From: a virus
Reading direction: 5' to 3' (one strand)
Length of the DNA stretch: 40,847 nucleotides
Virus genome (UHGV): UHGV-0390358
Shown: in pieces, positions 3,955 through 25,034 of the stretch
Layout: the number at the start of each line of letters is the position of its first letter
How positions within the stretch are numbered: the stretch's first letter is position 1
The notes under the pieces: model-generated
The model's database searches: none
Seen by the model: only the letters and a program-made list of their open reading frames with translations
What the model was told of the DNA's origin: nothing
Translations under genes and position numbers: made by a program

Positions 3955-4110
3955 GCAAATAATTTGTTTGCTATCCAGCACGTTTTGCAAATTACCTGAA
4001 AGGTAATATCTATTCGTATTTACAGCCTTTCTATCCATATGTGGTTTTTCAGGTAATAGAATAACCAGATATGCGGCGCAACGGGTGCTGCGACTATCTG
4101 GAGATTTAAC

Positions 4111-7100
4111 ATGACGGTCTCAACCGAAGTTGACCACAACGAATACACCGGTAACGGCGTTACGACATCGTTTCCGTATACTTTTCGAATTTTCAGAAAA
4201 TCAGACCTGGTTGTTCAGGTGTCTGACCTGAACGGGAACGTAACAGAATTGGTTCTGGATACCGGTTATACGGTAACTGGGGCGGGCACTTATAGTGGCG
4301 GTTCTGTGGTTCTTCCGTCTCCGCTTGCTACTGGATGGCGAATTACGATAGATCGTGTGCTTGATGTAGTGCAGGAGACAGACCTTCGCAATCAGGGAAA
4401 ATTTTTCCCCGAAGTGCATGAAGATGCCTTTGACTACCTGACGATGCTGATCCAGCAATGTTTTGGGTGGTTCAGACGTGCATTGATGAAACCATCTTTG
4501 CTTGCAAAATATTACGATGCAAAGCAAAACAAAATTTCTAACCTTGCAGATCCATCATTTGAGCAGGACGCTGTAAATAATCGCTCAATGCGTAATTATG
4601 TCGATGCTGCAATCGCCGGGGTTGTTGGTGGTTTTGGTTGGTTTATTCAGTATGGTTCTGGGGCTGTGTACCGAACGTTCCAGGATAAAATGCGTGATGC
4701 TATTAGCCCCAAAGATTTTGGAGCTGTTGGTGATGGTATAAATGACGATTCCACTGCAATAAGCGCGTGCCTTGAAGCCTCATCTCCAGTTTATAAAATT
4801 GACGGATTAGGGCTTACTTTTAAAGTATCAACTCTTCCGGATGTCAGTCGATTTAAAAATGCTCGTTTTTTATTTGAGAGAATACCGGGTCAGCCTCTTT
4901 TTTATGCTTCTGAAGATTTTATCCAGGGAGAGTTATTTAAAATTACAGATACACCGTGGTACAACGCCTGGACGCAGGATAAAACGTTTGTATATGACAA
5001 TGTCATCTATGCGCCTTTTATGGCTGGAGACCGCCATGGTGTAAATAACCTCCATGTTGCATGGGTTCGCTCAGGAGATGACGGGAAGACCTGGACAACG
5101 CCGGAATGGCTTACAGATTTACATGAAAACTATCCCACAGTTAACTATCACTGCATGTGTATGGGGGTTGTCAGAAATCGCCTTTTTGCTGTAATTGAGA
5201 CGCGGACCGTGAGCGGAAATAAACTGCAGGTTGCAGAGTTGTGGGATCGCCCAATGAGTCGCAGCCTTCGCGTTTATGGTGGTATAACGAAAGCAGCAAA
5301 TCAGCAAGTCGCTTATATTCGCATTACTGATCACGGATTATTTGCTGGTGATTTTGTCAACTTCTCAAACTCTGGTGTTACAGGTGTTACCGGGAATATG
5401 ACGGTGACTACTGTTATTGATAAAAATACTTTTACAGTTACGACGCAAAATACCCAGGATGTGGATCAGAATAACGAGGGTAGATACTGGAGTTTTGGTA
5501 CATCATTTCACTCTTCACCATGGAGAAAAACCAGTCTTGGAACTATTCCTTCTTTTGTTGACGGAAGCACTCCTGTTACTGAGATTCACAGTTTTGCGAC
5601 GATTAGCGATAACAGTTTTGCTGTTGGCTACCATAATGGTGATATTGGTCCACGCGAGCTTGGGATACTCTATTTCTCTGATGCTTTCGGTTCTCCTGGT
5701 AGCTTTGTTCGCAGACGCATACCTGCAGAATATGAGGCGAATGCATCTGAGCCATGTGTAAAATATTATGATGGCATTCTGTATCTGACGACCAGGGGGA
5801 CATTAAGTACTCAACCCGGTAGTTCATTGCACAGAAGCTCTGATTTAGGTACATCATGGAATTCTCTTCGCTTCCCAAATAATGTTCATCACTCAAACCT
5901 TCCTTTTGCCAAAGTTGGCGATGAGCTGATTATTTTTGGCAGTGAGCGCGCATTTGGTGAGTGGGAAGGAGGAGAGCCTGATAACCGTTATGCAGGAAAT
6001 TATCCAAGAACATTTATGACCAGAGTTAACGTCAATGAGTGGAGTCTGGATAATGTAGAGTGGGTTAATGTTACTGATCAGATTTATCAGGGCGGAATAG
6101 TTAACTCTGCGGTTGGTGTTGGTTCAGTTTGTATCAAAGACAACTGGCTGTACTACATTTTCGGTGGGGAAGACTTTCTAAACCCATGGAGCATAGGGGA
6201 TAACAACAGAAAATATCCTTATGTTCACGATGGTCACCCGGCTGATTTGTATTGTTTCAGGGTGAAAATTAAACAGGAAGAATTTGTTTCAAGGGATTTT
6301 GTCTACGGAGCCACTCCTAACAGAACGCTTCCTACTTTTATGTCGACGTCAGGCGTGAGGACGGTTCCTGTACCCGTTGATTTCACAGATGATGTTGCCG
6401 TCCAGTCACTGACTGTCCATGCAGGTACATCAGGACAAGTTCGCGCGGAAGTCAAACTTGAGGGTAATTACGCCATTATTGCGAAGAAAGTACCGTCTGA
6501 TGATGTTACCGCTCAGAGATTAATCGTTAGCGGCGGTGAAACAACGTCTTCAGCAGATGGTGCAATGATAACGTTGCATGGTTCCGGAAGCAGTACTCCA
6601 CGTCGCGCGGTATATAACGCACTCGAACATCTTTTTGAGAACGGAGATGTTAAACCTTATCTTGATAATGTAAATGCTCTTGGTGGTCCGGGAAACAGGT
6701 TCTCGACAGTTTATCTTGGCTCCAATCCTGTGGTTACCAGTGACGGAACATTAAAGACAGAGCCGGTCTCTCCTGACGAAGCATTGCTGGATGCCTGGGG
6801 TGACGTCAGGTATATCGCTTATAAATGGCTGAACGCTGTCGCTATAAAGGGGGAAGAAGGGGCGAGGATACATCATGGTGTAATCGCGCAGCAACTTCGT
6901 GATGTTCTTATTTCTCACGGACTCATGGAAGAAGAAAGCACAACATGCCGCTATGCCTTTCTTTGCTATGACGATTATCCCGCAGTATATGATGACGTCA
7001 TTACTGGCCAAAGGGAAATGCCGCTGACTGATAATGACGGGAGCATCATTGTTGATGAGGATGATAATCCAGTGATGGTAATGGAAGACATCATTGAGCG

Positions 7101-7230
7101 CGTTGAAATAACGCCAGCAGGATCTAGATGGGGGGTCAGACCTGATCTCTTATTCTATATCGAGGCAGCATGGCAGCGCAGAGAAATGGATAAGATAAAA
7201 GAGCGGATTCAGTCTCTGGAAGAACGTTAA
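4111..7230 (+). CDS. Tailspike endosialidase (endo-N-acetylneuraminidase) with C-terminal intramolecular chaperone domain
   Basis: 1039 aa; conserved podovirus tailspike N-terminal head-binding region; sialidase Asp-boxes SGDDGKTW and SSDLGTSW; C-terminal HGVIAQQLRDV... autoproteolytic chaperone-type domain. Confidence 0.85.
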   Translation: MTVSTEVDHNEYTGNGVTTSFPYTFRIFRKSDLVVQVSDLNGNVTELVLDTGYTVTGAGTYSGGSVVLPSPLATGWRITIDRVLDVVQETDLRNQGKFFPEVHEDAFDYLTMLIQQCFGWFRRALMKPSLLAKYYDAKQNKISNLADPSFEQDAVNNRSMRNYVDAAIAGVVGGFGWFIQYGSGAVYRTFQDKMRDAISPKDFGAVGDGINDDSTAISACLEASSPVYKIDGLGLTFKVSTLPDVSRFKNARFLFERIPGQPLFYASEDFIQGELFKITDTPWYNAWTQDKTFVYDNVIYAPFMAGDRHGVNNLHVAWVRSGDDGKTWTTPEWLTDLHENYPTVNYHCMCMGVVRNRLFAVIETRTVSGNKLQVAELWDRPMSRSLRVYGGITKAANQQVAYIRITDHGLFAGDFVNFSNSGVTGVTGNMTVTTVIDKNTFTVTTQNTQDVDQNNEGRYWSFGTSFHSSPWRKTSLGTIPSFVDGSTPVTEIHSFATISDNSFAVGYHNGDIGPRELGILYFSDAFGSPGSFVRRRIPAEYEANASEPCVKYYDGILYLTTRGTLSTQPGSSLHRSSDLGTSWNSLRFPNNVHHSNLPFAKVGDELIIFGSERAFGEWEGGEPDNRYAGNYPRTFMTRVNVNEWSLDNVEWVNVTDQIYQGGIVNSAVGVGSVCIKDNWLYYIFGGEDFLNPWSIGDNNRKYPYVHDGHPADLYCFRVKIKQEEFVSRDFVYGATPNRTLPTFMSTSGVRTVPVPVDFTDDVAVQSLTVHAGTSGQVRAEVKLEGNYAIIAKKVPSDDVTAQRLIVSGGETTSSADGAMITLHGSGSSTPRRAVYNALEHLFENGDVKPYLDNVNALGGPGNRFSTVYLGSNPVVTSDGTLKTEPVSPDEALLDAWGDVRYIAYKWLNAVAIKGEEGARIHHGVIAQQLRDVLISHGLMEEESTTCRYAFLCYDDYPAVYDDVITGQREMPLTDNDGSIIVDEDDNPVMVMEDIIERVEITPAGSRWGVRPDLLFYIEAAWQRREMDKIKERIQSLEER

Positions 7231-7536
7231 AAAAAAGCCCGCAATATTTTGCGGGTATCAAAAACGGAGTTTGTGAAAAGTTATCTTTGAATTCTATCAT
7301 GAATCAGTACGTATTTTAAATACATGTTCAGGTTTATTACACCATAGCATTATTAAATACAAAATTAAGTCTATGGTTCCTGTACAACTGCCCCCACTCT
7401 GCTGGCTCGTTCTGTAAAATCATTAGTACTTTTATTGAGATATATGATATGGAACAATAATGATTCATATATGGTTTACTATGCGGGGTTAGTCATCAAT
7501 AATTGACTGGCTTATAGATAGTAAACAGGAGAAAGT

Positions 7537-7941
7537 ATGTCTGCTCAAGTAACAAGTGAGCAATTAAATCAGTTGCTTAGTTTTGGTTCTCTTGCTGCGG
7601 TTATTGCAGGTGTCCCTCCGGAGGTTGCTTTAGGGGCTTTGGCTGGGGCGGTAATTTTTGTTACCTCTGCAGTAGAGTACCCCATCCGTCGCCGGGTGCT
7701 CCTTTCGATGCTCAGCTTTCTTTGTGGCCTTCTCTTTTACAAACCAGCAGCATCAATTCTTATCGGCATAGCCAGCCTGATCCCTACCATCACGCAGGAC
7801 TCTTTTGAAAAAGGGATTGTTTTCTCTGCAGGCGCATTCGTGTCAGCAATTGTCGCTGTGCGTATTGGTATATGGCTCTATCACCGTTCCGATAATCCAC
7901 GCGAGTTAATTCCGGGGAGAAAAGACGATGGTAACGCATGA
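7537..7941 (+). CDS. Putative holin-like membrane protein
   Basis: AGGAG ribosome-binding site; 134 aa with several predicted TM segments; first gene of a cassette followed by endolysin and spanins. Confidence 0.45.
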   Translation: MSAQVTSEQLNQLLSFGSLAAVIAGVPPEVALGALAGAVIFVTSAVEYPIRRRVLLSMLSFLCGLLFYKPAASILIGIASLIPTITQDSFEKGIVFSAGAFVSAIVAVRIGIWLYHRSDNPRELIPGRKDDGNA

Positions 7942-8236
7942 GTTTTTTTTGCTTATCACCAATGCAGTTATTTGCACTGGCATAGCAATTCGCGTTGTCA
8001 CATTCCGGCGTAACGGCTCTCAACATCGAAGGTGGGGAGGATGGCTTGCTTATTTCCTGATTGTTGCTGCGGCCAGTATTCCTGTTCGAGTCGCCTATGC
8101 AATCTGGTTACGTACGCCAATGGCTGTGGATTTATCTGAGGTCATTATCAACGCTGTCATGCTGGCTGCGGTTATTAAAACGCGCGGTAACGTCGTTCAA
8201 ATTTTTAAAGTATCGAGGTCTAAACATGGAGATTAA
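7928..8236 (+). CDS. Putative holin/antiholin-like small membrane protein
   Basis: 102 aa hydrophobic protein; start overlaps previous gene; immediately upstream of endolysin. Confidence 0.4.
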
Positions 8237-8855
8237 ACAATTCCAGCGAGCTGCTGGTACCAGCGAGGCACTGGCCGCACGCTGGTTCTCGCATATAACT
8301 TCTGCGATGAAAGAGTTTGGTATCAGCAAAGCAGAAGATCAGGCAATGTTTATTGCTCAAGTCGGGCATGAGTCTGGGGGCTTCACCAGGTTGCAGGAGA
8401 ATTTCAACTACAGTGTCAGCGGACTGGCTAACTTCGTTCGGGCTGGGCGTCTCACTCAGGGGCAGGCTAATGCACTGGGGCGCCGTGCTGGTGAACCACC
8501 ATTGCCACTTGAGCGCCAGCGCGCGATCGCAAATCTGGTATACAGCAAACGCATGGGGAACAATGCCCCTGGTGATGGCTGGAATTACCGAGGGCGCGGA
8601 CTTATCCAGATTACCGGTTTGAATAACTATCGTGATTGCGGAAACGGTCTGAAGGTTGACCTGCTGGAGAGCCCTGAACTGCTGGCGCAGGACGAATATG
8701 CGGCTCGTAGCGCGGCGTGGTTCTTCGCCAGCAAAGGATGCATGAAGTATACCGGCGATATTGCACGTGTAACTCTGATTATCAATGGTGGCAGAAACGG
8801 TATCGACGACCGGCGTGCGCGGTACATCACAGCAAGTAAGGTACTGGCGGTATGA
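8226..8855 (+). CDS. Endolysin, glycoside hydrolase family 19 (chitinase-like) type
   Basis: ATG at 8226 (ribosome-binding site GAGG); motifs [12 protein letters not shown] and [12 protein letters not shown] typical of GH19 phage endolysins. Confidence 0.8.
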
Positions 8856-9349
8856 TCTGGGCATTTGTAAAAGCATACCGTAAACAGTTACTTATCGTGG
8901 CGATGCTTGCTGTTCTGGTCATATCAGGAGTTGTTGCCTGGAATGTGCACGGCATCCGTCAGTACGATGCCGGGTATGCGCAGGCGAAGGAAGATCAGAA
9001 ACAGGCTGATGATAAGTTAAGGTCACAGCGTGAGCAGGAGAAAACACAAATTGAACGTGAAGCACAATCCCGTATCGATGCGGCGCGTGCTGATGCTGAG
9101 TATGCTAATTCCGCTGCTGACAGCATGCGCGCCGAGCTTGACAAAACCAGGCGGCTCGCCGAACACTATACCGGATCTTTCCCCCCTGGCACGCCAGCCA
9201 GCAAGGTCATCGGTGTGCTCGCCGACATGCTTGAAGAAAGCAACCGAGTTTACAACGCAACAGCAGCTGAGGCTGAAAAGTATCGTATCGCAGGGGAATT
9301 CTGCGAGCAGCAATACGATTCACTGAAGAAGCAAAAATCGTGGCACTGA
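8852..9349 (+). CDS. Rz-like inner-membrane spanin
   Basis: N-terminal TM helix followed by charged coiled-coil region; directly after endolysin. Confidence 0.65.
9078..9326 (+). CDS. Rz1-like outer-membrane lipoprotein spanin, embedded in the +1 frame of the Rz-like gene
   Basis: Embedded ORF with lipobox LLTAC, Pro/Ser-rich; start codon choice uncertain. Confidence 0.4.
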   Translation: MRRVLMLSMLIPLLTACAPSLTKPGGSPNTIPDLSPLARQPARSSVCSPTCLKKATEFTTQQQLRLKSIVSQGNSASSNTIH

Positions 9350-9354
9350 TTTCC

Positions 9355-9616
9355 GGTGACGGTATATGAAACGGTACGGGAAAAGTTGAGGCTTGGAAAA
9401 GTGTTATCACTCAATTGGTTATGGTTGTCGTAAATAATCGAGTGGGAATGATTAACAGCTAACTCATAGCAACTCATTCCTATTCAGATACCAATTTAAC
9501 CCTCTGTTTTTACAGAGGGTTTTTGTTTTTATGTATTCATTTCTATTCACTCTACACCATATTTTTCGTCGGTACAGGTGACGGTATTACCTTAAAGGTA
9601 TACTCTCATACCGTCA
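9355..9616. repeat. Candidate attP arm region: GGTGACGGTAT repeats upstream of the integrase gene
   Basis: GGTGACGGTAT at 9355-9365 and 9577-9587 (direct), inverted copy ATACCGTCA at 9608-9616; core site not identified. Confidence 0.3.
9499..9530 (+). terminator. Rho-independent terminator downstream of lysis cassette
   Basis: ACCCTCTG-ttttta-CAGAGGGT followed by TTTTTGTTTTT. Confidence 0.6.
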
Positions 9617-9643
9617 TGAAAATGGTTTCTATACGGGTGAATT

Positions 9644-10894: not shown

Positions 10895-10897
10895 CGT

Positions 10898-14840: not shown

Positions 14841-14917
14841 TTACCGTTAAGGTAATAATTATGCTTATTTGGTTTGGTGTCAATAGATATGAGTTAAAAA
14901 AATTACCCGTAAGGTAA
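14841..14917. promoter_or_regulatory. Leftward early promoter region with two TTACC-N5-GGTAA operator palindromes
   Basis: TTACCgttaaGGTAA at 14841-14855 and TTACCcgtaaGGTAA at 14903-14917, between repressor terminator and first leftward gene. Confidence 0.55.
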
Positions 14918-14974: not shown

Positions 14975-15559
14975 TTATTGTTTGCTTTTTTCGTTCTGGT
15001 TGATGACAAATTCAATGTAACTTTCGATCTTTGCTTTCTCGGTTTCGGGTAACAATGCGTAGCGTGAGCGGTCATAGTTGATAGTCGCAGGGTCGTGCGG
15101 GTGAATCAGTAGTTCATATCCGTGACGCCCGAATGCGGATGCAACATTCTCCAGGGTGGAAATGGAAACGCTGACCTCATTGTTTAACAGGCGGCTGATT
15201 GTCACCTGGGCGACGCCGGATGCGCGGTGAAGTTTTCCCTGTGTTGAAAGGTCGCGGCTTTCGCTCATCCAGCGTTCCAGGTTGTGAGCCGCCAGCTGAC
15301 CTATATCGCTCGGGCCGACAGGCTGAAAACCCTCCTGAGAAAGCGAACGATCAATATCAAGCCAGTTACGGGGTTTATTGGCGGCAGCTTCAATTTTTCG
15401 TGCAACCTGGTCGCCGATAACCTTCTTGCCAAGAGCCCAGCGGTTTACCAGATTTGCCTGAGTTCCAAGTTTTTCTGCCATCCGCGTCTGAACACCATTG
15501 AATTCACGGTCGATCAAGTCGTTGAGATTTTGCCTGCGGACGTCCTGGATACTTTTCAT
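14975..15559 (-). CDS. Prophage repressor with two tandem XRE-type HTH domains and no peptidase S24 autocleavage domain
   Basis: 194 aa; HTH-like segments QTRMAEKLGTQANLVNRWALGK and VAQVTISRLLNNEVSVSISTLENVASAFG; divergent from Cro-like gene across an operator-containing region. Confidence 0.7.
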   Translation of the reverse strand: MKSIQDVRRQNLNDLIDREFNGVQTRMAEKLGTQANLVNRWALGKKVIGDQVARKIEAAANKPRNWLDIDRSLSQEGFQPVGPSDIGQLAAHNLERWMSESRDLSTQGKLHRASGVAQVTISRLLNNEVSVSISTLENVASAFGRHGYELLIHPHDPATINYDRSRYALLPETEKAKIESYIEFVINQNEKSKQ

Positions 15560-15614
15560 TTTCTGGAAAATCGCCTCATATATGAATCAGTAGATGATTC
15601 AATTTAAAGCAATA

Positions 15615-15713: not shown

Positions 15714-15944
15714 ATGAGCGATAACGGACATTTCGATTTCAAAAAGCACTGGCTTGCACTTACTCCGGATGAGCGTGAAGCCTTCGCACAGGAAGCCGGA
15801 ACGACGAGTCACTATATCCAGACTCACTTAACAGGCAAGCGCAAAATGCCAGGTAAAGTATTGATGAATGGGCTTTTTAAAGCCTGTAAAACAAGACAAT
15901 GGCTGCGCTCAAAAGCAGAACTGGCATACTTCTTCTACTCATGA
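15714..15944 (+). CDS. Cro-like small HTH regulator
   Basis: 76 aa, divergent from repressor; HTH-like EREAFAQEAGTTSHYIQTHLTGKRKM. Confidence 0.5.
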   Translation: MSDNGHFDFKKHWLALTPDEREAFAQEAGTTSHYIQTHLTGKRKMPGKVLMNGLFKACKTRQWLRSKAELAYFFYS

Positions 15945-15965
15945 TATCCAGCTACAACCCTCTGT

Positions 15966-15990: not shown

Positions 15991-16092
15991 TATCTATTCG
16001 TACCTCAAAGGTAATAAAAAACCAAATCTGGTTGATCAAATTTTCCAATTGTGCAAAATAGCCAATATCAATAACAAAAAGGGGCGGAAAAA

Positions 16093-16305
16093 TTGAAGAT
16101 AGTAACCAGAATGGAGGCCGCAAAAGCCGGGTTAAATCGCTATTTCACAGGAAAGCAGTGCCGTCACGGCCATCTCTCTGAAAGGTATGTTCTGAACGGA
16201 ACATGTGTTGAATGTGCAATGAATAGCGCCAACCGCCATCGTAATGAATTTGCTTGTGCACTAAAGAGTGCAAGAGGGGAAACCTATGGCAAGCAGCTGG
16301 ATTAA
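16093..16305 (+). CDS. Small zinc-finger protein (CxHxH...CxxC), possible regulator
   Basis: TTG start with AGGGG ribosome-binding site; motif GKQCRHGHLSERYVLNGTCVEC; start uncertain (alternative ATG at 16111). Confidence 0.35.
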   Translation: MKIVTRMEAAKAGLNRYFTGKQCRHGHLSERYVLNGTCVECAMNSANRHRNEFACALKSARGETYGKQLD

Positions 16306-17870: not shown

Positions 17871-17987
17871 TACCAGCGCGATAGCGCATTTTTTTACGCC
17901 TCAATAATTACCTATAAGGTAACAAAATATTCTAAGCTCTATTGATTTCGTGTCTTATGTGGTTTTTAATTACCTTAGAGGTAAATC

Positions 17988-18335
17988 ATGAGAAAACAGA
18001 TACAGGCTCTTGGTCGACTCAAAACAGGCCAGATGAACAAAACAGAATCTGCGTATTGCCAGCACCTTGAGCAGCGTAAACGTGCAGGGGAAATCGCCTG
18101 GTATCGATTCGAGGGTATTAAGCTGCGGTTAGCAGACAACACGTTCTATACGCCCGATTTCGCTGTGATGCTCGCCACCGGAGAGATGGAACTGCACGAA
18201 GTGAAAGGGGGATTCTGGACCGACGACGCCAGGGTGAAAACCAAAGTAGCCGCAGATCAGTATCCGTTCCGAATCATCGGGGTAACGGTTAAACCAAAGA
18301 AAGCAGGTGGCGGCTGGAACATCGAAGAGTTCTGA
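17988..18335 (+). CDS. Putative PD-(D/E)XK-type nuclease (possible Holliday-junction resolvase role)
   Basis: 115 aa; motif YTPDF...ELHEVKG; follows replication genes as resolvases do in lambdoid nin regions; operator palindromes immediately upstream. Confidence 0.4.
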   Translation: MRKQIQALGRLKTGQMNKTESAYCQHLEQRKRAGEIAWYRFEGIKLRLADNTFYTPDFAVMLATGEMELHEVKGGFWTDDARVKTKVAADQYPFRIIGVTVKPKKAGGGWNIEEF

Positions 18336-18396
18336 ATCGACGATCTTTTTAGTTATCAATGTAATCAATAAGTTATGTGGATAAGCGAGGGTAAAG

Positions 18397-18957
18397 ATGG
18401 AAAGTAATATCAAAGGGTTAGTTTCCGCCGGGCATGAGATGGCTTCGGAACTGAAAGCAGAATGTGGTGCCGTTGATATGCGCAGTGTGGCAAAGCTGAT
18501 CAGCGATTTGGCAACGCAACTGGAAGTGCAACTGGTGCGTGCTAATGCGCTGGCCGAAGACCACCAGAGAGCGACTGAGTCAATTAAGCAGGCTGATTCG
18601 GCTGTTAAGTTGGCGCACGAGAAGTTTTCGGTGCTGGCGGCGGAGAATGAGCTGGCTCGTAAGGCAGTTCAGGCATTCTGCGATGTTGTTGGCGACAACA
18701 CCGAGGTTATCGCTGAGGTGGTTGGGCGAGATGGCGTTCTGGTTATTTTGGAGGCCATGAAGGCAACAGGAAATATGCCAGCCACCGATGCTTTCCTGGC
18801 TGAAGTCCGGGCGCAGGGGGTGGATATGGCTCGTAACGCGATGATTGATTTTGTTGATGGTGAAGTTGGGCCAAACAAGAACGTTCCGGGGCTGATTAGA
18901 GGCGCAGAGATATGCGTAAGTATTGCTGAACAGCTTCGCAAAGGAGGCAACCAGTGA
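18397..18957 (+). CDS. Hypothetical protein
   Basis: 186 aa ORF with start overlapped to neighbours; unassigned. Confidence 0.45.
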   Translation: MESNIKGLVSAGHEMASELKAECGAVDMRSVAKLISDLATQLEVQLVRANALAEDHQRATESIKQADSAVKLAHEKFSVLAAENELARKAVQAFCDVVGDNTEVIAEVVGRDGVLVILEAMKATGNMPATDAFLAEVRAQGVDMARNAMIDFVDGEVGPNKNVPGLIRGAEICVSIAEQLRKGGNQ

Positions 18958-19490
18958 GCGAAATTAATTACCAGGCACTGCGTGAGGCGGCGGAACGTGC
19001 AATTCCGGCAATGGAACGCCTGTTAATGTTGCCAGTTGATGATGATCTGATAAGTGAACAGGAACTTAAAGATTACGGTGTGGATATTGATGCGCTCAAC
19101 GCCTTCAAATTTCTGGCCGGACCAGAAACCGTGCTGGCGCTTCTGGATGAACGGGAAAGAAACCAGCAATACATCAAACGCCGCGACCAGGAGAACGAGG
19201 AGATTGCGCTAACGGTAGGGAAGCTGCGCGTTGAGCTTGAAGCAGCAAAATCAAAACTCAACGAGCAGCGCGAGTATTACGAGGGAGTTATCTCTGATGG
19301 GTGCAAGCGTATTGCTGAACTGGAAGCGCGGGAAGTTCAATTACCGACTCGCTACGACCTTCGATATGGACACCCGATAAATGCAGATGAGCGACAAGTC
19401 ATGATACCTAAAGAAAATGGCAGTTGGCTTTACCTGATTGACCTAGAACACGCATTACGCGTCGCTGACATTCGCATCAAAGGAGAGTGA
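18954..19490 (+). CDS. Ead/Ea22-like protein
   Basis: N-terminal MSEINYQALREAAERA... resembles lambdoid Ead/Ea22-like N-termini; coiled-coil middle. Confidence 0.45.
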   Translation: MSEINYQALREAAERAIPAMERLLMLPVDDDLISEQELKDYGVDIDALNAFKFLAGPETVLALLDERERNQQYIKRRDQENEEIALTVGKLRVELEAAKSKLNEQREYYEGVISDGCKRIAELEAREVQLPTRYDLRYGHPINADERQVMIPKENGSWLYLIDLEHALRVADIRIKGE

Positions 19491-19491
19491 T

Positions 19492-20670
19492 ATGACCACT
19501 TTTACCGACAAAGAACTGATTAAAGAAATCAAAGAGCGCATCAGCAGCCTGGACGTGCGAGACAATATTGAGCGCCGTGCTTATGAAATTGCTCTGGCAT
19601 CGCTGGAAGCAGAACCGGTGGCGTGGGAATGCGGTGAAAACATAATTTTGTTTAACCCTGACACAGTTGAAGCATACGCAAAACGTGCGGAGATAACACC
19701 TAAGCCACTATTCTCCGCGCCGCCAGCGCCGATGGCTGCGCCGGAGAAATGCCCGGCAGAAATTCGAGAGCTGATGTCGTCGCATTCTGACGATCTCTTC
19801 AACGATGAAGACGCTCAGGAGATTTGGAACACCTGCCGCGCCGCTATGCTTCAGTCCGGAAACTTTCGGGAAAACAAGAATTCGTCAACCAATAATTTTC
19901 GAGAAATCGCGGAAACGTCAACCAACTATCCGGCAATTCCTAGTGAGGTGTTGTCCGCAATCCTGAAGGTTGCCAGGATTCGTGCCGATTTCGATGATTT
20001 TGACGGTGACAGGCGAGGTATCGGTGATTGTCTGGATGAGGCTGAGCAAGAGCTTATCGTTACCATTAACAAATATGCCAGTCAGTTGGCAGTAGTACCT
20101 GTTGGGCTTGATGAACGTGCAGCTTTCAATGCCTGGAATAACGACGAGAACCTCCCCATAGCTGGTGTTGGCGCAAAAAACGCTGCCTGGTTAGCCTGGC
20201 AAGCCCGCGCTGAGTTGGGTCGCTCGTTAGCCGTAAACTCTCCGGTAATTCCGGATGGTTTATCCACGGTATGCGCTGAGGCTTATCAGGTTGTAGGAGT
20301 TATGGCAGATGCGCTTGGTGTATTCGGTGATGCAGCAGTACAGAAAGTTCTGGATAACCTGTCACAGCAAAAACTTGTTCACAGAGATGTGCTGCCGTTC
20401 TCGCTTCCGGTAACTCCGGATGGTTGGGTTATAGTGCCGAAGAAACTAACCGCTGAGAACGGCGCTAAGGGTGTGCTATCCGGTGAATTTTCAGAAACTA
20501 CGTTTATAAGCTGCCCGGAATGCTTTGGCGATGATGATTGCGATACCTGTGACGGGAGCGGACGAATTGAAATTAAAGTACCAGTCACGTGGACGACCAT
20601 AAAATCCATCTGGGATAAAGGTATTGCGCATTTTGCAGCAAAACCGCCGCAGGAGGTTAACCGTGGCTAA
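19492..20670 (+). CDS. Hypothetical protein with C-terminal DnaJ-type CxxCxGxG zinc-finger motif
   Basis: 392 aa; C-terminal CPECFGDDDCDTCDGSG. Confidence 0.45.
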   Translation: MTTFTDKELIKEIKERISSLDVRDNIERRAYEIALASLEAEPVAWECGENIILFNPDTVEAYAKRAEITPKPLFSAPPAPMAAPEKCPAEIRELMSSHSDDLFNDEDAQEIWNTCRAAMLQSGNFRENKNSSTNNFREIAETSTNYPAIPSEVLSAILKVARIRADFDDFDGDRRGIGDCLDEAEQELIVTINKYASQLAVVPVGLDERAAFNAWNNDENLPIAGVGAKNAAWLAWQARAELGRSLAVNSPVIPDGLSTVCAEAYQVVGVMADALGVFGDAAVQKVLDNLSQQKLVHRDVLPFSLPVTPDGWVIVPKKLTAENGAKGVLSGEFSETTFISCPECFGDDDCDTCDGSGRIEIKVPVTWTTIKSIWDKGIAHFAAKPPQEVNRG

Positions 20671-20944
20671 CCTGCAACTTGCCGTCAAAGGTGAATACTT
20701 CGATGCCATGATTCGCGGGGAGAAAACGGAAGAGTATCGCCTGTGTAATGACTACTGGAAAAAGCGCCTCGTTAACCGTAAGCATGACCGCCTGATTATC
20801 ACAAAGGGATATCCGAAGCGCGACGATTCCAGCCGCAGAATAGACGTCCCGTATGAAGGGTATGAAATCAAGACAATCACACATCCGCACTTCGGCGATA
20901 AACCGGTAAAGGTGTTCGCGATAAAGGTAAATATTGATGGCTAA
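20663..20944 (+). CDS. Small protein, possibly ASCH/PUA-like fold
   Basis: GTG start overlapping previous stop; ...YFDAMIRGEKTEEYRL...; weak assignment. Confidence 0.35.
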   Translation: MANLQLAVKGEYFDAMIRGEKTEEYRLCNDYWKKRLVNRKHDRLIITKGYPKRDDSSRRIDVPYEGYEIKTITHPHFGDKPVKVFAIKVNIDG

Positions 20945-21275
20945 ATCAGCAGCAGAGCGCAAAGCCGCTCAGAGAGCCAGACAAGCTGCATCTGGTGTGC
21001 GTAAACTGGAGATTGTGCTTGATGCTCAGGAAATTGAAATGCTGGAGCGTAACTGTGCCACGCGTCGCCCCGGGCGTGCGCCTTACGAATTTGGTGAGTA
21101 TATAGCGTTACTGATCCGCCAGGATGATGCACGCGTGCGCGGGCGTATAAAATCGATCAGCAGAAAACGTTGCGGTAAGTGCGGCGAGAGAGTTCCAGTT
21201 AATTCATGCCCGTGTAATGGTGACTCGCAATGCTGGGTGACTAAAGGCTGGCATGAAACGAAATTAATAGTGTGA
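20937..21275 (+). CDS. Hypothetical protein with C-terminal Cys cluster
   Basis: ATG at 20937; C-terminal CGKCGERVPVNSCPCNGDSQC; stop lies inside the GTGACATGTCAC palindrome. Confidence 0.4.
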   Translation: MAKSAAERKAAQRARQAASGVRKLEIVLDAQEIEMLERNCATRRPGRAPYEFGEYIALLIRQDDARVRGRIKSISRKRCGKCGERVPVNSCPCNGDSQCWVTKGWHETKLIV

Positions 21276-21323
21276 CATGTCACGAGTAGATTATGCATGA
21301 TGAATTTGATGGTTTTGAATACT

Positions 21324-21349
21324 GCCGCCAACTATGGCGGCTTTATTTT
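21324..21349 (+). terminator. Rho-independent terminator between early-right genes and terminase operon
   Basis: GCCGCC-aactat-GGCGGC followed by TTTATTTT. Confidence 0.5.
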
Positions 21350-21392
21350 GCATGGTACTATTACCACAACGGTAACTATTACCACGGTGGTT

Positions 21393-21989
21393 ATGATGCC
21401 TGCTGAACCTAAAACCTATAAACGCAAATCAACGCAATTTAAGCCACTAACAGCAATGCAGGAGGCTTATTGCCAGTCATACATCAAAACGCCTGAAAAC
21501 CAGACTCAGGCAGCGATTAATGCAGGATTCTCCCCAAATACAGCGGCAGTTAAAGCCAGTGTCATGATGCGCGATGAACGCATTCAAAAACGGATTGCCG
21601 AGTTGATGGAGGAGCGCAACAAACGAATGCGCGTCAGTGCTGATTACGTTCTCATGCGCCTGGTGGAGATCGACCAGATGGACGTGATCGACATCCTCAA
21701 CGACGATGGGAGCCTTAAACCAATCCGTGAGTGGCCGAAAATCTGGCGCACTACGCTTAGTGGCTTTGATCTGTCATCGATCATCATGAACATGAACGAG
21801 GATTCGATAGAGACAATCCTCAAAAAAATTAAATGGCCTGACAAGGTGAAGAACCTTGAGCTGATTGGTAAGCATGTTGATGTCAACGCGTTCAAAGAAC
21901 GTCTGGATGTTAATGTGAATGTGACAATTGCTGATCGCATAGCAGCAGCCAGGAAGCGACTCAAAGAACGTCAGGATGGTAATCAGTGA
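21393..21989 (+). CDS. Terminase small subunit
   Basis: HTH-like ...QAAINAGFSPNTAAVKASVMMRDERIQKRIAEL; immediately upstream of and overlapping TerL; start taken at internal ATG 21393. Confidence 0.6.
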   Translation: MMPAEPKTYKRKSTQFKPLTAMQEAYCQSYIKTPENQTQAAINAGFSPNTAAVKASVMMRDERIQKRIAELMEERNKRMRVSADYVLMRLVEIDQMDVIDILNDDGSLKPIREWPKIWRTTLSGFDLSSIIMNMNEDSIETILKKIKWPDKVKNLELIGKHVDVNAFKERLDVNVNVTIADRIAAARKRLKERQDGNQ

Positions 21990-23455
21990 CAGATACATCG
22001 TTATCTCCTGAAGAGCAGTTGATCGAGGATATTGCAGGGTTCACTCACGATCCGCTTGGCTATGCCCTCTATGCGTTCCCGTGGGGGGAAGAGGGGACTG
22101 AACTGGCACATGCCACCGGCCCACGTCAATGGCAGGCTGATGCGTTCCGAGAGATACGTGATCACCTGCAGAATCCAGAGACGCGCTATCAGCCGCTTAT
22201 GCTGGCACGCGCTTCTGGTCACGGTATTGGTAAATCCGCATTTATCTCAATGCTGATCAACTGGGGCATGTCCACTTGCGAGGATTGTAAGGTCGTGGTG
22301 ACCGCCAACACCGACAACCAGCTACGAACGAAGACCTGGCCGGAAATTATCAAGTGGTCGAACCTTGCTATCACGAAAGACTGGTTTACCTGTACCGCTA
22401 CCGCGATGTACAGCAATGACCCTGGGCACGACAAGCGGTGGCGAGCTGACGCAATCCCTTGGTCTGAGCACAACACTGAGGCATTCGCCGGACTACACAA
22501 CGAGCGCAAACGCATCATCGTGGTATTCGATGAAGCGTCGAACATTGCGGATCTGGTGTGGGAAGTTGCCGAGGGTGCGCTAACGGACGAAGACACTGAG
22601 ATTATCTGGGTGGCGTTCGGAAACCCGACGCGTAATACCGGACGTTTCCGCGAATGTTTCCGCAAATATAAACACCGCTGGAAAACTGCGCAGATTGACA
22701 GCCGGACGGTGGAAGGCACCAACAAACAGCAGTTGCAGAAATGGGTTGATGACTACGGGGAAGACAGCGACTTCGTTAAAATCCGTGTGCGTGGAATATT
22801 CCCTGATGCATCTGAATTGCAGTTTATCCCTACCGGTCTTACTGACGAGGCAATGAAACGGGTGGTAACCGCTGCGCAGGTTGCACATGCTCCGGTGATA
22901 ATTGGCGTTGACCCGGCATACTCCGGCGTTGATGACGCTGTGATATACCTGCGGCAGGGGCTACACAGTAAGGTGCTGTGGACTGGCAACAAGACCACTG
23001 ACGATCTGATAATGGCGAAGCGTATCGCTGACTTTGAAGACCAGTACCAGGCTGACGCAGTGTTCATCGACTTCGGTTACGGAACTGGTCTGAAGTCAAT
23101 CGGTGACGGCTGGGGTCGTACATGGCAACTTGTTCCGTTTGGTGGCGCGTCTACTGACCCGCAGATGCTCAACAAGCGTGGGGAGATGTTCAACTCATGC
23201 AAGACATGGCTGAGGCTGGGCGGCATGCTTGATGACCAGGAAACAGCGGACGACCTGTCGGCGGCAGAGTACAAAGTTCGAGTGGACGGTAAAATCGTTA
23301 TCGAACCGAAGGAAGATATCAAGGAGCGGCTTGGGCGTTCTCCTGGTAAAGGCGATGCGCTACTGCTGACGTTTGCGTTCCCGGTAGCCAAGAAAACTAA
23401 TGACCCACGGCAGCAGCAGGGCAGGGCTATAACAGACTATGACCCATTTGAATGA
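21986..23455 (+). CDS. Terminase large subunit
   Basis: GTG start overlapping TerS stop; Walker A-like ARASGHGIGKSAF and Walker B-like IIVVFDEAS; 489 aa. Confidence 0.85.
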   Translation: MTDTSLSPEEQLIEDIAGFTHDPLGYALYAFPWGEEGTELAHATGPRQWQADAFREIRDHLQNPETRYQPLMLARASGHGIGKSAFISMLINWGMSTCEDCKVVVTANTDNQLRTKTWPEIIKWSNLAITKDWFTCTATAMYSNDPGHDKRWRADAIPWSEHNTEAFAGLHNERKRIIVVFDEASNIADLVWEVAEGALTDEDTEIIWVAFGNPTRNTGRFRECFRKYKHRWKTAQIDSRTVEGTNKQQLQKWVDDYGEDSDFVKIRVRGIFPDASELQFIPTGLTDEAMKRVVTAAQVAHAPVIIGVDPAYSGVDDAVIYLRQGLHSKVLWTGNKTTDDLIMAKRIADFEDQYQADAVFIDFGYGTGLKSIGDGWGRTWQLVPFGGASTDPQMLNKRGEMFNSCKTWLRLGGMLDDQETADDLSAAEYKVRVDGKIVIEPKEDIKERLGRSPGKGDALLLTFAFPVAKKTNDPRQQQGRAITDYDPFE

Positions 23456-23458
23456 TTT

Positions 23459-24283
23459 TTACTTTTGTGTTTTTGATTTTCTTTGATAGGTGGAATTTAA
23501 ATCACCATTTATATTTACTAGAGGATTATTCAATAATGTACTGATTTCTGGATTGTTAATTCCAGTAACGCCAAGTTTCTTTACGGACTCATTAAAGTCT
23601 TGTAATGATTTTAGACCTACAAGCCCATTAGCAATTGTATTATTTGTTGCCAAAGGAATGTTTTTCTTATAGGACTCATATTCGTTTTTTAAATTTTTGT
23701 GAGTTTTTTCTAGATTTTCTAGTTTAGATGTTGTTTCATCAATAACCTTAGATAATTCTAAAATACGAGCTTGTGCTGCGCGCAGTTCTGTCTCCCTCTC
23801 TTTCAATTCAGATGTGAGTTGTCCCATTCTGTCTTTTGAAAGAATTATTTCCTCTTTCATGTCTTGAATGTTTTTTTCAGCGCCTGTTTTTACTTTTTCG
23901 TAAGTAATGTCTTTTTTAGCCAGCAATCTCTGTAGCCGTGTTTCACGTTGTATTTTTCTTGCCTTCCGGTGGTTTTCGATTGAGTCATTATTATCAAGAG
24001 GTTTTGCTTGCCATACGTTAATGATATTGTTTACCCATGGTAATAGGCAGCAGATAGTAATTACAGATAAGCATGGATAAAACATAACAGTTTTCCATGT
24101 GCTGTTATCTGAGATGTATGAAATTTTATCTATTATATTTGATTTGCTAAAAAACAGATAAAGAAGTGATTTCCAGTTGAAGGCGCACCAGGACATAACA
24201 AAAGCACCAAGCACAGGGTTTTTAGCTCGATGCACGGCAGTATTGGCAGTAGATAAAAACAGCTCTTTGAACGATTCGAACAT
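23459..24283 (-). CDS. AT-rich accessory protein: N-terminal membrane segments + long coiled-coil; unknown function
   Basis: Opposite strand to flanking late genes; AT-rich composition unlike neighbours; consensus TATAAT -10 at 24309-24314 overlapping an operator palindrome; in-frame alternative starts at 24307 and 24337. Confidence 0.5.
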   Translation of the reverse strand: MFESFKELFLSTANTAVHRAKNPVLGAFVMSWCAFNWKSLLYLFFSKSNIIDKISYISDNSTWKTVMFYPCLSVITICCLLPWVNNIINVWQAKPLDNNDSIENHRKARKIQRETRLQRLLAKKDITYEKVKTGAEKNIQDMKEEIILSKDRMGQLTSELKERETELRAAQARILELSKVIDETTSKLENLEKTHKNLKNEYESYKKNIPLATNNTIANGLVGLKSLQDFNESVKKLGVTGINNPEISTLLNNPLVNINGDLNSTYQRKSKTQK

Positions 24284-24342
24284 ACTAATTACCTTAAAGT
24301 TTTTCATGATTATACCTTTAAGGTAATTTGTGGTCATCAGGC

Positions 24343-24367
24343 AAAAAAAATGCCCGGCGAACCGGGC
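24343..24367 (-). terminator. Rho-independent terminator downstream of the tRNA
   Basis: Minus strand GCCCGG-ttcg-CCGGGC followed by a run of 8 T. Confidence 0.45.
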
Positions 24368-24530
24368 GAACTGGAAGCAATGAGTTATGCCTTCCGTGGC
24401 TGTACGGGTTTACAGCATGAAGTCATCGCAATGGCGTCCTGCTGTAAAAAGGGCGGTGATAGGCCTTCAAGGGAAACCATCACCGCCAAGCCCCTGGAAC
24501 TTCTGGCATCACGGTCCTCAGGCGTGATTC

Positions 24531-24607
24531 TGGCGTGGCATGCAGGATTCGAACCTGCGACCAACCGCTTAGAAGGCGGTTGCTCTGTCCAACTGAGCTA
24601 ATGCCAC
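24531..24607 (-). tRNA. tRNA-Arg (anticodon UCU)
   Basis: Reverse complement folds as a 77-nt cloverleaf: 7-bp acceptor stem GTGGCAT/ATGCCAC, D-arm GCTC..GAGC, anticodon loop CTTCTAA, T-arm GCAGG-TTCGAAT-CCTGC, 3' CCA; differs from E. coli argU in the acceptor stem. Confidence 0.9.
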
Positions 24608-25034
24608 AACGCTGAGAGCACTTAGCCTGTTAAGGCGCCACACTTTGTCTCGGCTCCATAAATGCTCTCATCGTTGTACCCTCGTCTCTTCCGAGGCGTC
24701 ACACCGAATCGCCGGGATGGTGAATCCCCGTGCGCGGAATAAAACCGCTCGACTTGCACATTCCGGCTACCTGGTTCGTTTGCCCGAGCAAGGGAGGGTG
24801 CCCCTTAAACGTATCCAGACCGCTATCGGCGCATGTGCCATACGCCGTACTGCTCAAAATAAAAGCTCACTCCACCTGTTCAATTTAACGACAAGCCAGT
24901 CAGGTTAGTAACCGGAATGAACTCTTTGGTTACCTGAAAGGTAATAATTTGTGCGTTAAATGTCAACTATCTACGATAAATAAATCATATGTGGTTAAAT
25001 TGGTAATAATTTAATTGCGTACGGAGTCATTGAT

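What the first reader, a model, noticed from the sequence alone, without database searches (positions are those of the whole stretch)
4038..24996. Recurrent ATrTGGTTT motif upstream of late-type genes
TATGTGGTTTTT (4038-4049, tailspike), TATGTGGTT (24988-24996, portal operon), TATGTGGTTTTT (17956-17967, nuclease gene), TATATGGTTT (7468-7477, lysis) and GATGGTTTT (21308-21316, terminase) each lie 30-85 bp upstream of the first start codon of a late-type operon. In three cases a GGTAAT half-site or a full operator follows within 2-5 bp. The element is short, so it is tentative, but it could be a late-promoter element read by a phage activator, for which the small zinc-finger ORF at 16093 is a candidate.
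Basis: seen in the sequence. Interest (0 to 1): 0.5.

Follow-up and report, generated by a model that had tools for sequence, protein, structure and literature searches.

The report
Second palindromic operator in phage promoters
The recurrent TATGTGGTT word is real, but it is one arm of a conserved 14-base palindrome built into most repressor-controlled promoters (early and late) of this epsilon15/phiV10-like phage, so it looks like a second operator site, not a late-gene activator signal.

Summary
The window is a complete, circularly permuted Uetakevirus (epsilon15/phiV10-like) genome. TAT[AG]TGGTT occurs four times, always intergenic and always on the + strand (Fisher p=3e-5), and is conserved at orthologous promoters in 17 relatives. 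The fifth site (21308, terminase) does not fit the motif and is not conserved.

The 9-mer is the right arm and centre of a 14-bp imperfect palindrome, consensus AACCATATATGGTT. Besides the tailspike, lysis, portal and "site B" promoters, it also lies in the leftward early promoter PL, upstream of the replication genes, and at the Bro-antirepressor promoter. It is therefore not late-specific.

It usually sits exactly 5 bp from a half-site of the known repressor operator (TTACC-N5-GGTAA). It overlaps the predicted -35 or spacer at varying distances from the -10. That is operator-like placement, not activator-like.

The proposed zinc-finger activator belongs to a domain family spread through unrelated lytic phages. 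Another candidate, the gp49-like regulator, travels with a different palindrome (GTGACATGTCAC).

The binding protein is unresolved; the Cro-like protein or Rep itself are the best candidates. The late-activator reading is weakened but not excluded. Interest is moderate.

The parts
4033..4046 (+). 14-bp dyad ATCCATATGTGGTT in the tailspike promoter.
   Evidence: AT.CATAT..GGTT is invariant in 7 lineages, while the 26 nt between it and the upstream operator vary.
3992..4006 (.). Full Rep operator TTACCTGAAAGGTAA, centred about -70 from the predicted tailspike transcription start. It is shared with the divergent ant promoter.
   Evidence: The orthologous site is annotated 'protein_bind repressor' in the epsilon15 RefSeq record.
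4052..4062 (+). GGTAAT Rep half-site (4052-4057) abutting the predicted -10 TAGAAT (4057-4062). The predicted -35 TCCATA (4034-4039) lies inside the dyad.
   Evidence: GGTAATAGAAT is conserved in relatives. The hexamer varies as TAGAAT, TACAAT or TAAACT and keeps T-12, A-11 and T-7. Inferred, not mapped.
7463..7476 (+). Dyad ATTCATATATGGTT upstream of the lysis cassette. Its last TT begins the predicted -35 TTTACT (7475-7480), paired with -10 AATAAT (7498-7503).
   Evidence: The orthologous site is a perfect AACCATATATGGTT in phiV10 and Tyrion.
14861..14874 (.). Dyad ATGCTTATTTGGTT filling the spacer of the leftward early promoter PL. On the minus strand, -35 TTGACA is at 14883-14878 and -10 AATTAT at 14860-14855.
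   Evidence: It is ATCCATATATGGTT in Tyrion and ATCCTTATGTGGTT in BUCT554.
14841..14917 (.). Pair of full Rep operators (14841-14855 and 14903-14917), 62 bp centre to centre, flanking PL.
   Evidence: The same 62-bp spacing is found in all relatives.
16020..16033 (+). Dyad AACCAAATCTGGTT, 5 nt after the operator at 16000-16014. It overlaps the predicted -35 TTGATC (16032-16037), paired with -10 CAAAAT (16054-16059). It lies upstream of the zinc-finger ORF and replication genes.
   Evidence: A.CCa.ATa.GGTTGATC is conserved in every genus examined.
17951..17964 (+). Dyad TGTCTTATGTGGTT filling the spacer of promoter B, between -35 TTGATT (17942-17947) and -10 TTTAAT (17965-17970).
   Evidence: This is the mirror image of the PL architecture.
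17908..17984 (.). Pair of full Rep operators (17908-17922 and 17970-17984), 62 bp apart, flanking promoter B.
24983..24996 (+). Dyad AATCATATGTGGTT in the gp3/portal promoter.
   Evidence: TGGTTAAATTGGTAATAATTTAA is invariant in all genomes. In Klebsiella phages, blastn matches only this promoter block.
24930..24944 (.). Full Rep operator upstream of the portal promoter. DNA homology with distant relatives starts exactly here.
25002..25012 (+). GGTAAT half-site (25002-25007) and predicted -10 TAATTT (25007-12). An alternative is an extended -10, TGG-TAATAA.
   Evidence: Inferred by analogy with the tailspike promoter.
2820..2833 (.). Dyad AACCGTATTTGGTT within the longer palindrome AATCAACC..GGTTGATT. 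On the minus strand it abuts -35 TTGATT of the predicted leftward promoter (-10 TATCAT 2797-2792) for the ash/Bro-N antirepressor genes.
21308..21316 (+). It is not part of the element.
   Evidence: It does not fit the motif and is not conserved.

Best explanation
TATGTGGTT is the well-conserved arm and centre of a 14-bp imperfect palindrome. The half-sites are AACCA and TGGTT separated by 4 bp, giving the consensus AACCATATATGGTT. I read it as a second class of operator built into the repressor-controlled promoter cassettes of Uetakeviruses.

Shown: It is conserved across genera while flanking intergenic DNA drifts. It occurs at early promoters (PL, the replication-gene promoter, promoter B, the Bro-antirepressor promoter) as well as at late ones (tailspike, portal, lysis). 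It is usually separated by exactly 5 bp from a half-site of the known Rep operator (TTACC-N5-GGTAA). Its centre lies 19.5, about 41-43 or about 52 bp from full Rep operators, close to whole numbers of helical turns.

Inferred: A dimeric DNA-binding protein sits on it. Because the element covers the predicted -35 hexamer or the -35/-10 spacer, occupancy interferes with RNA polymerase. Because it abuts a Rep half-site, its occupant must either cooperate with or compete with the looping Rep tetramer.

About 0.35 for the family-specific Cro-like HTH protein, the first gene of the rightward early promoter PR. Its recognition helix is invariant like the dyad, and the dyad half-site TAACC/GGTTA looks like a diverged sister of Rep's TTACC/GGTAA. 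About 0.3 for Rep itself, with the dyad as the promoter-proximal auxiliary contact that lets a tetramer anchored at a far-upstream operator occlude the tailspike, portal and lysis promoters. About 0.2 for another phage or host factor.

On any of these readings it belongs to the lysis/lysogeny switch wiring and is not a late-promoter recognition element.
For: The motif is real and intergenic-only. The 14-bp palindrome is perfect (14/14) at the phiV10 and Tyrion lysis promoters and scores 11-13/14 at five or more loci per genome. Phylogenetic footprints show that the operator, the dyad and the -10/half-site block are the only conserved blocks in the tailspike, portal, replication-gene and lysis upstream regions across 6-7 lineages. 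The element is also present in Citrobacter, Erwinia, Buttiauxella, Scandinavium and Klebsiella prophages. In 80 E. coli prophages only the ninth position varies, taking all four bases, while AACCAAAT-N-TGGTT stays fixed. A Rep half-site (at most 1 mismatch) lies exactly 5 nt away in 43 of 69 unique contexts, in three different arrangements: GGTAA-5-dyad, dyad-5-TTACC and dyad-5-GGTAA. PL and promoter B are mirror images: -35, 3 nt, dyad, -10, flanked by operators 62 bp apart. At the tailspike and portal promoters the only full operator is centred about -70 and -82, too far upstream to repress alone (coordinates). Rep of SPC32H is a DBD-dimerisation-TetDloop tetramer likened to the DNA-looping repressor Rco. 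Rep overexpression abolishes holin and endolysin transcripts in the near-identical phage ZX5. The dyad is best where no Rep site is adjacent (lysis, 12-14/14) and weakest next to a full operator (PL and B, 9-11/14), as expected if binding energy is shared. The Rep N-terminal recognition helix (NLVNRW) and the Cro-like helix (TTSHYIQTHL) are both invariant across the family, matching two invariant palindromes.
Against: There are no binding data and no mapped transcription starts. All -35/-10 assignments are predictions, and the consensus scan found no >=9/12 sigma-70 match at the tailspike, portal or B sites. The PR/PRM region has three canonical operators but only weak dyad-like sequences of 9-10/14, which is odd for a Cro operator. 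Psychrobacter phage pOW20-A has homologues of both the Rep N-domain and the Cro-like protein with ACCT-N3-AGGT operators, yet has no dyad. The dyad differs from the Rep operator at a fully conserved base (TTACC versus AACCA) and in spacing (ACC-N6-GGT versus ACC-N5-GGT), which argues against the Rep N-domain as its reader. The portal promoter is a poor sigma-70 match although it must drive all virion genes, which would suit an activator. The lysis and Bro-promoter dyads lack an adjacent Rep half-site. The shared 5-bp gap may partly reflect common descent of duplicated promoter cassettes.
Confidence: 0.5

Rival explanations
1. Activator site, a broadened version of the reader's idea. A phage-encoded dimeric activator binds the dyad and recruits or substitutes for sigma-70 region 4 at promoters with poor -35 hexamers, switching on lytic (including late) transcription once Rep is removed.
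For: The tailspike, portal and lysis promoters have weak or no -35 matches: TCCATA and ATCATA score 3/6, and the relatives' lysis promoters have none. No >=9/12 sigma-70 match was found at these sites. At the replication-gene, Bro-antirepressor and window lysis promoters the dyad centre falls at about -41, the class II activator position. The motif always points toward the gene at the late promoters. Precedents from my own knowledge: P1 late promoters carry a palindrome near -22 read by Lpa, and the T4 MotA box sits at -30.
Against: The same element fills the 17-bp spacer of PL and promoter B, which already have good -35 hexamers (TTGACA, TTGATT). An occupant there should hinder polymerase, not help it. 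The distance to the -10 differs among sites: 0, 7 and 10 nt from the dyad end. No activator candidate emerges. The zinc-finger ORF domain is generic. The gp49-like protein travels with a different palindrome and, in ZF40, occurs without any dyad. PerC/ANR-type proteins are not known to bind DNA. Direct Rep operators at every one of these promoters imply that they fire without a late factor.
Confidence: 0.22
2. Core-promoter or DNA-shape feature with no dedicated protein. CATAT would be the -35 hexamer (TTCATA), and the flexible TATA-rich centre with GGTT would tune spacer geometry or the tight Rep loop.
For: TTCATA (4/6) lies 17 bp upstream of TAGAAT in most tailspike promoters. The element centre is alternating pyrimidine-purine (CATATATG), which is highly deformable. 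It lies between operators that must be brought together.
Against: The conserved outer bases AACC and GGTT have no role in sigma-70 recognition. The element sits at four different positions relative to the -10. Its dyad symmetry, perfect over 14 bp in two genomes, and its constant 5-bp offset from Rep half-sites point to a protein.
Confidence: 0.12
3. Host transcription factor or nucleoid-protein site (DnaA, IHF, CRP, a GntR/TetR-type regulator) co-opted by the phage.
For: The element is invariant across phages of six host genera, as a site for a conserved enterobacterial protein would be. The epsilon15 record annotates IHF sites next to the operators.
Against: TGTGGTTTT has 3 mismatches to the DnaA box TGTGNAWAA. 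No IHF consensus overlaps any dyad, and the window's seven consensus IHF sites are all elsewhere. The CRP right half is absent. The known ACCA/TGGT palindromes I can recall (RutR N2; FadR and PdhR in the inverse orientation) differ in spacing or orientation. I could not scan host genomes for the dyad.
Confidence: 0.08
4. Chance recurrence of a short word in AT-rich intergenic DNA.
For: In intergenic-only k-mer discovery the 9-mer is merely at the null 95th percentile. One of the five cited sites is indeed spurious.
Against: 0 of 100 shuffles reach three exact copies. All 4 of 4 sites are intergenic (p=3e-5). Conservation at orthologous sites spans 17 other genomes with divergent flanks.
Confidence: 0.02

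Closest known systems
Rep operator of epsilon15/SPC32H-type phages (TTACC-N5-GGTAA; annotated 'protein_bind repressor' in NC_004775; Rep/Ant system of Kim & Ryu 2013 and Kim et al. 2016)
   Same: Both are palindromic and dispersed over nearly every transcription unit. Both overlap or flank core promoters. They share an ACC...GGT core and are helically phased with one another.
   Different: The half-site is AACCA, not TTACC, differing at a 100%-conserved base. The ACC-GGT spacing is 6, not 5. The central AT is conserved (94%), whereas the operator centre is only A/T-biased. The element is not annotated in any record fetched. The binding protein is unknown.
Lambda-type CI/Cro switches and multipartite operators with cooperative or looped repressor binding (OR1-3/OL1-3); the DNA-looping TetDloop repressor Rco of pLS20
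   Same: Adjacent palindromes lie about 2 turns apart, with distant partners 4-6 turns away. A tetrameric repressor is expected to bridge sites. A small Cro-position HTH protein is encoded divergently from the repressor.
   Different: Here two distinct palindrome types alternate, whereas in lambda CI and Cro share the same sites. The sites are spread over seven or more promoters, including those of virion and lysis genes, not just the immunity region.
Dedicated late-promoter elements: P2/P4 Ogr/Delta TGT-N12-ACA at -55; Mu C and Mor sites; the P1 Lpa palindrome near -22; the T4 MotA box at -30 (from my own knowledge)
   Same: A short conserved element replaces or overlaps a weak -35 at virion-gene promoters. 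The P1 case is also a palindrome between -10 and -35, in a phage whose repressor has dispersed operators.
   Different: Those elements are confined to middle or late promoters and sit at a fixed distance from the start site. This one is also in early promoters and its distance to the -10 varies. No cognate activator was identified.

Membership tests
Late-promoter activator element (Ogr/C/Lpa/MotA type) | Restricted to late (virion/lysis) promoters | tested here: not met
   It is also present in the PL spacer (14861), upstream of the replication genes (16020), at promoter B (17951, the nin-like operon) and at the Bro-antirepressor promoter (2820).
Late-promoter activator element (Ogr/C/Lpa/MotA type) | Fixed position relative to the -10 or transcription start | tested here: inconclusive
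   Using the -10 hexamers best supported by conservation, the dyad end lies 0, 7 or 10 nt from the -10, with centres at -19.5 to -41. No start sites have been mapped, so this rests on prediction.
Late-promoter activator element (Ogr/C/Lpa/MotA type) | A cognate phage activator gene that co-occurs with the element | tested here: not met
   The zinc-finger ORF domain occurs in 215 phage records, many of them lytic and unrelated. The gp49-like gene occurs in ZF40 with no dyad. No other candidate was found.
Canonical Rep operator (TTACC-N5-GGTAA) | Half-site sequence and 5-bp spacing | tested here: not met
   The dyad is AACCA-N4-TGGTT (ACC-N6-GGT). Position 2 of the half-site is A in 99% of dyads and T in 100% of operators.
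Canonical Rep operator (TTACC-N5-GGTAA) | Bound by Rep | not testable with these tools
   This needs EMSA or footprinting.
Operator-type site in general (repressor-style placement) | Dyad symmetry, overlap with the core promoter, conservation above that of the flanks | tested here: met
   The palindrome is 14/14 in phiV10 and Tyrion. It overlaps the predicted -35 or spacer at 7 promoters. Footprints are shown.
Sigma-70 -35 hexamer | Match to TTGACA 16-18 bp upstream of a -10 | tested here: inconclusive
   TTCATA/TCCATA (4/6 and 3/6) lies 17 bp from TAGAAT at the tailspike promoter. At PL and B, however, the element lies in the spacer between separate, good -35 and -10 hexamers.
DnaA box / IHF site | TTATCCACA (reverse complement TGTGGATAA); WATCAANNNNTTR | tested here: not met
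   TGTGGTTTT has 3 mismatches to the relaxed DnaA box. No IHF consensus overlaps any dyad. A perfect DnaA box exists elsewhere (18376) and is unrelated.

The most novel reading that the evidence does not exclude
Uetakevirus lytic promoters are read by a two-code system. Every cassette combines the Rep operator with a second, sister palindrome (TAACC-N6-GGTTA) placed 5 bp away. That second palindrome would be read either by the Cro-like protein acting as a genome-wide local anti-immunity factor, or by Rep's own middle HTH_3-fold 'dimerisation' domain. In the latter case one repressor would read two different palindromes with two different HTH domains.
Probability: 0.2. Interest if true: 0.6.

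Novelty: new member of a known kind. Interest (0 to 1): 0.38.

Why it matters
Uetakeviruses (epsilon15, phiV10, SPC32H/SPN1S) are used as reporter and biocontrol phages, and they are the model for the LexA-controlled Ant/Rep antirepression switch. How the Rep tetramer actually represses has 'not been extensively characterized' (PMC9986798). A second conserved palindrome wired 5 bp from Rep half-sites at seven promoters gives a concrete, testable handle on three things: how a far-upstream operator can silence virion and lysis promoters, what the Cro-like protein does, and which bases to avoid or exploit when engineering promoters in these phages. It also corrects the tempting inference that a shared word upstream of virion genes marks a late-activator regulon.

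Tried and rejected
- Sigma-54, sigma-28, sigma-32 and sigma-E consensus, a CRP site, a DnaA box and an IHF site as identities for the motif. None fits (by inspection).
- An RNA-level role. With the predicted -10 hexamers the motif lies upstream of the transcription start at the tailspike, portal and B promoters, so it is not in those transcripts.
- An exact 14-mer scan of viral contigs. It returned about 120 mostly chance hits and was uninformative.
- The search for related loci with the Cro-like alignment in viral contigs. It returned 80 loci, all with 100% identical Cro. These were useful only for micro-variation.
- The genome-contig scan. It gave 8 further genera, all with the same operator and dyad, so no covariation test between protein and site was possible.
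- tblastn of the Cro-like protein and of the Rep C-terminal half. Both are confined to the family, apart from pOW20-A, so co-occurrence cannot separate them.
- AlphaFold2 of the gp49-like protein. Mean pLDDT was 64.6. The order of strand, helix and helix is compatible with a ribbon-helix-helix fold, but confidence is too low for a fold search, so none was run.
- PDB sequence searches for the Cro-like and gp49-like proteins. Nothing significant.
- The primary papers (Kropinski 2007; Kim & Ryu 2013; Kim et al. 2016) were not held. What they say about operators comes from my memory, the epsilon15 RefSeq annotation and secondary citations.
- The full-text searches I ran turned up no transcription-start or RNA-seq data for this phage group.

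Full report
**What the window is.** The 40,847-bp window is a complete, circularly permuted genome of a temperate podophage of the genus Uetakevirus. The last virion gene runs off the right end and resumes at the left end. The closest record is Escherichia phage vB_EcoP_ZX5 (98% identity). phiV10, epsilon15, SPC32H/SPN1S, Tyrion and others are related. The gene order matches those records:
- ant (3657..3929, minus strand)
- tailspike (4111..7230)
- lysis cassette (from 7537)
- attP and integrase
- leftward early operon (RecE/RecT, AlpA-like, PerC-like, methylase)
- repressor Rep (14975..15559, minus strand)
- Cro-like gene (15714..15944)
- a small zinc-finger ORF (16093) and the replication genes
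- a nin-like operon starting with a DUF1064 gene (17988) and ending with a gp49-like regulator (20934..21275)
- TerS (true start 21396) and TerL
- a moron on the minus strand
- gp3, portal and the virion genes (from 25035)

**Checking the observation.**
- Exact TATGTGGTT occurs three times against 0.23 expected, and 0 of 100 shuffles reach three.
It fits neither 24988 nor 21308.
- TAT[AG]TGGTT occurs four times in the whole genome on both strands. All four are intergenic and on the + strand (Fisher p=3.3e-5).
- k-mer discovery restricted to intergenic DNA is dominated by the repressor operator and puts TATGTGGTT only at the null 95th percentile. The case rests on the genome-wide count and on conservation.
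- The 21308 site (GATGGTTTT) does not fit. It has an extra G in ZX5 and phiV10 and is replaced by unrelated sequence in the Salmonella and Enterobacter relatives. I reject it.

**The known context.** The palindrome TTACC-N5-GGTAA occurs 16 times (at most 1 mismatch) against 0.67 expected, at nearly every transcription unit. The epsilon15 RefSeq record annotates the orthologous sites as repressor-binding sites. Pairs exactly 62 bp apart flank the leftward early promoter PL (14841 and 14903) and the promoter I call B (17908 and 17970) in every genome. Rep of SPC32H is described as an N-terminal DNA-binding domain, a middle dimerisation domain and a C-terminal TetDloop tetramerisation domain, likened to a DNA-looping repressor. 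ant carries a LexA box (3937-3952), which fits the published Ant/Rep system.

**What the motif really is.** Orthologous upstream regions were compared from nine complete relatives and, for the replication-gene and portal regions, from eight more prophages in other genera. The conserved unit is longer than the 9-mer.
- It is a 14-bp imperfect palindrome, consensus AACCATATATGGTT. It is perfect at the lysis promoters of phiV10 and Tyrion and scores 11-13/14 at five or more loci per genome.
- In the tailspike, portal, replication-gene and lysis alignments the only conserved blocks are the Rep operator, this dyad, and the -10/half-site block.
- In Klebsiella phages, blastn homology to the portal region covers only the operator-to-promoter block.

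**Not late-specific.** In the window the dyad occurs at seven sites:

| Position | Sequence | Location |
|---|---|---|
| 4033 | ATCCATATGTGGTT | tailspike promoter |
| 7463 | ATTCATATATGGTT | lysis promoter |
| 24983 | AATCATATGTGGTT | portal promoter |
| 17951 | TGTCTTATGTGGTT | promoter B |
| 14861 | ATGCTTATTTGGTT | spacer of PL |
| 16020 | AACCAAATCTGGTT | after the cro terminator, upstream of the zinc-finger ORF and replication genes |
| 2820 | AACCGTATTTGGTT | Bro-antirepressor promoter |

**Architecture.** Three arrangements recur.
- At PL and B the layout is -35 (TTGACA / TTGATT), 3 nt, dyad, -10 (AATTAT / TTTAAT). The -10 runs into a full operator, and a second operator lies 62 bp upstream. 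The two promoters are mirror images.
- At the replication-gene promoter, the leftward Bro promoter and the window's lysis promoter, the last TT of the dyad is the first TT of a -35-like hexamer (TTGATC, TTGATT, TTTACT). The element centre is then near -41.
- At the tailspike and portal promoters the dyad is followed after 5 nt by GGTAAT, which abuts a -10-like hexamer. That hexamer is TAGAAT in most relatives and varies as TACAAT or TAAACT, keeping the key positions; at the portal promoter it is TAATTT. The matching -35 (TTCATA, TCCATA or ATCATA) lies inside the dyad, whose centre is near -29.5. The only full operator is about 70-82 bp upstream of the predicted start.

In the relatives' lysis promoters a good TATGAT or TATAAT lies 7 nt after the dyad. 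All of these -35/-10 assignments are inferred, not mapped.

**Coupling to Rep sites.** A Rep half-site (at most 1 mismatch) lies exactly 5 nt from one end of the dyad in 43 of 69 unique contexts, in all three arrangements. Dyad-to-operator centre distances are 19.5, 40.5-43.5 and 51.5-52.5 bp, close to 2, 4 and 5 helical turns (computed from coordinates). The dyad is most perfect where no Rep site is adjacent (lysis) and most degenerate beside a full operator (PL and B). It is nevertheless distinct from the operator. Its half-site has A where the operator has an invariant T, its ACC-GGT spacing is 6 rather than 5, and its central AT is conserved.

**Who reads it.**
- The zinc-finger ORF (16093) carries a module present in 215 phage records, many lytic and unrelated, often within endonuclease VII or HNH annotations. 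It is a poor candidate.
- The gp49-like protein has an N-terminus weakly like a CopG/ribbon-helix-helix 'LexA-regulated protein' and a Cys4 C-terminus. The AlphaFold2 model has low confidence. This protein co-occurs with a different palindrome, GTGACATGTCAC.
- The myovirus ZF40 shares only that gene (67% identity). It has three exact copies of GTGACATGTCAC but no dyad and no Rep operator.
- The Cro-like protein and both halves of Rep are confined to this family. Both have invariant recognition helices.
- Psychrobacter phage pOW20-A has homologues of the Rep N-domain and of the Cro-like protein with ACCT-N3-AGGT operators but no dyad.

I rank the Cro-like protein first (about 0.35), then Rep as an auxiliary, promoter-proximal contact (about 0.3), then another factor (about 0.2).

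**Mechanism and rivals.** The element overlaps predicted core promoter elements at variable positions. It is palindromic, it is present at early as well as late promoters, and it is locked to Rep half-sites. The best-supported reading is therefore a second operator class within the lysis/lysogeny circuitry (confidence 0.5).

The activator reading keeps about 0.22. The tailspike, portal and lysis promoters are weak sigma-70 matches, and three sites have a class II-like placement. A pure promoter or DNA-shape role gets about 0.12, a host-factor site about 0.08, and chance about 0.02.

**Novelty.** The Rep operator, the Ant/LexA control and the genome type are known. The 14-bp dyad is not annotated in any record I fetched, and I found no description of it in the literature I could read. 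I file it as a new member of a known kind (a phage operator-type cis-element), of moderate interest, with a more interesting 'two-code' reading not excluded.

Noticed in passing
window 763-774 and 21272-21283 (terminators at 775-792 and 21322-21349): An exact 12-bp palindrome, GTGACATGTCAC, sits next to intrinsic terminators at operon boundaries. One copy overlaps the stop codon of the gp49-like gene just before TerS. The other is at the end of the virion operon. Relatives have a third copy right after the TerL terminator. The unrelated myovirus ZF40 shares only the gp49 homologue and has three exact copies, one directly after that gene. This is probably the target of the gp49-like protein (ribbon-helix-helix-like plus Cys4) and possibly the real control point for terminase and late read-through. 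It resembles matS (GTGACRNYGTCAC) but has a 2-nt centre.
   Followed up: partly
window 3937-3952: A near-consensus LexA box, CTGTATATTTATACAG, lies upstream of the minus-strand ORF 3657..3929. That ORF is the homologue of the SPC32H antirepressor Ant, so SOS induction works through a LexA-controlled antirepressor, as published for SPC32H.
   Followed up: partly
window 14841/14903 and 17908/17970; also 15615, 15632, 15663; 21361/21379: Rep operators come in fixed geometries. Pairs exactly 62 bp centre to centre flank PL and promoter B in every genome. Three operators lie in the rep-cro region (17 and 31 bp apart). A tandem pair 18 bp apart lies just before the TerS start codon. Sixteen sites in all place almost every transcription unit, including morons, under direct Rep control.
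   Followed up: partly
window 18363-18384: An IHF-consensus site (AATCAATAAGTTA) is followed immediately by a perfect DnaA box (TGTGGATAA, reverse complement TTATCCACA). Both lie in the short intergenic gap between the DUF1064 gene and the Eae-like gene. This could be chance or an origin-related feature.
   Followed up: no
window 16093-16305: The 'zinc-finger' ORF (more likely starting at the ATG at 16111) carries a CxHxH...CxxC module. The module is widespread in lytic and temperate phages of Vibrio, Xanthomonas, Klebsiella and Synechococcus, often as part of endonuclease VII or HNH proteins. Here it overlaps the start of the DnaT-like replication gene.
   Followed up: partly
window 2906-3634 and 23459-24337: Two accessory genes are absent from ZX5 at these places. 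One is a 242-aa protein with EndoVII/Lar-like zinc-ribbon repeats, between the antirepressor genes and ant. The other is a 292-aa minus-strand moron between TerL and the portal operon. Its predicted promoter (ATGACC-17-TATAAT) has a Rep operator (24312-24326) in the spacer.
   Followed up: no
window 9437-9453: The attP core ATCGAGTGGGAATGATT lies about 190 bp upstream of the integrase gene. It has one mismatch to the published attP core of phiV10, epsilon15 and ZX5, which integrate at the 3' end of guaA.
   Followed up: no
window 15583-15597 (L002 33300 in epsilon15): A weak dyad-like palindrome (CCTCATATATGAATC; ATCCATTTAATGTT in epsilon15) lies between the rep start codon and the three canonical operators. 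It is a possible low-affinity site controlling the rep promoter, but it is not conserved in all lineages.
   Followed up: no
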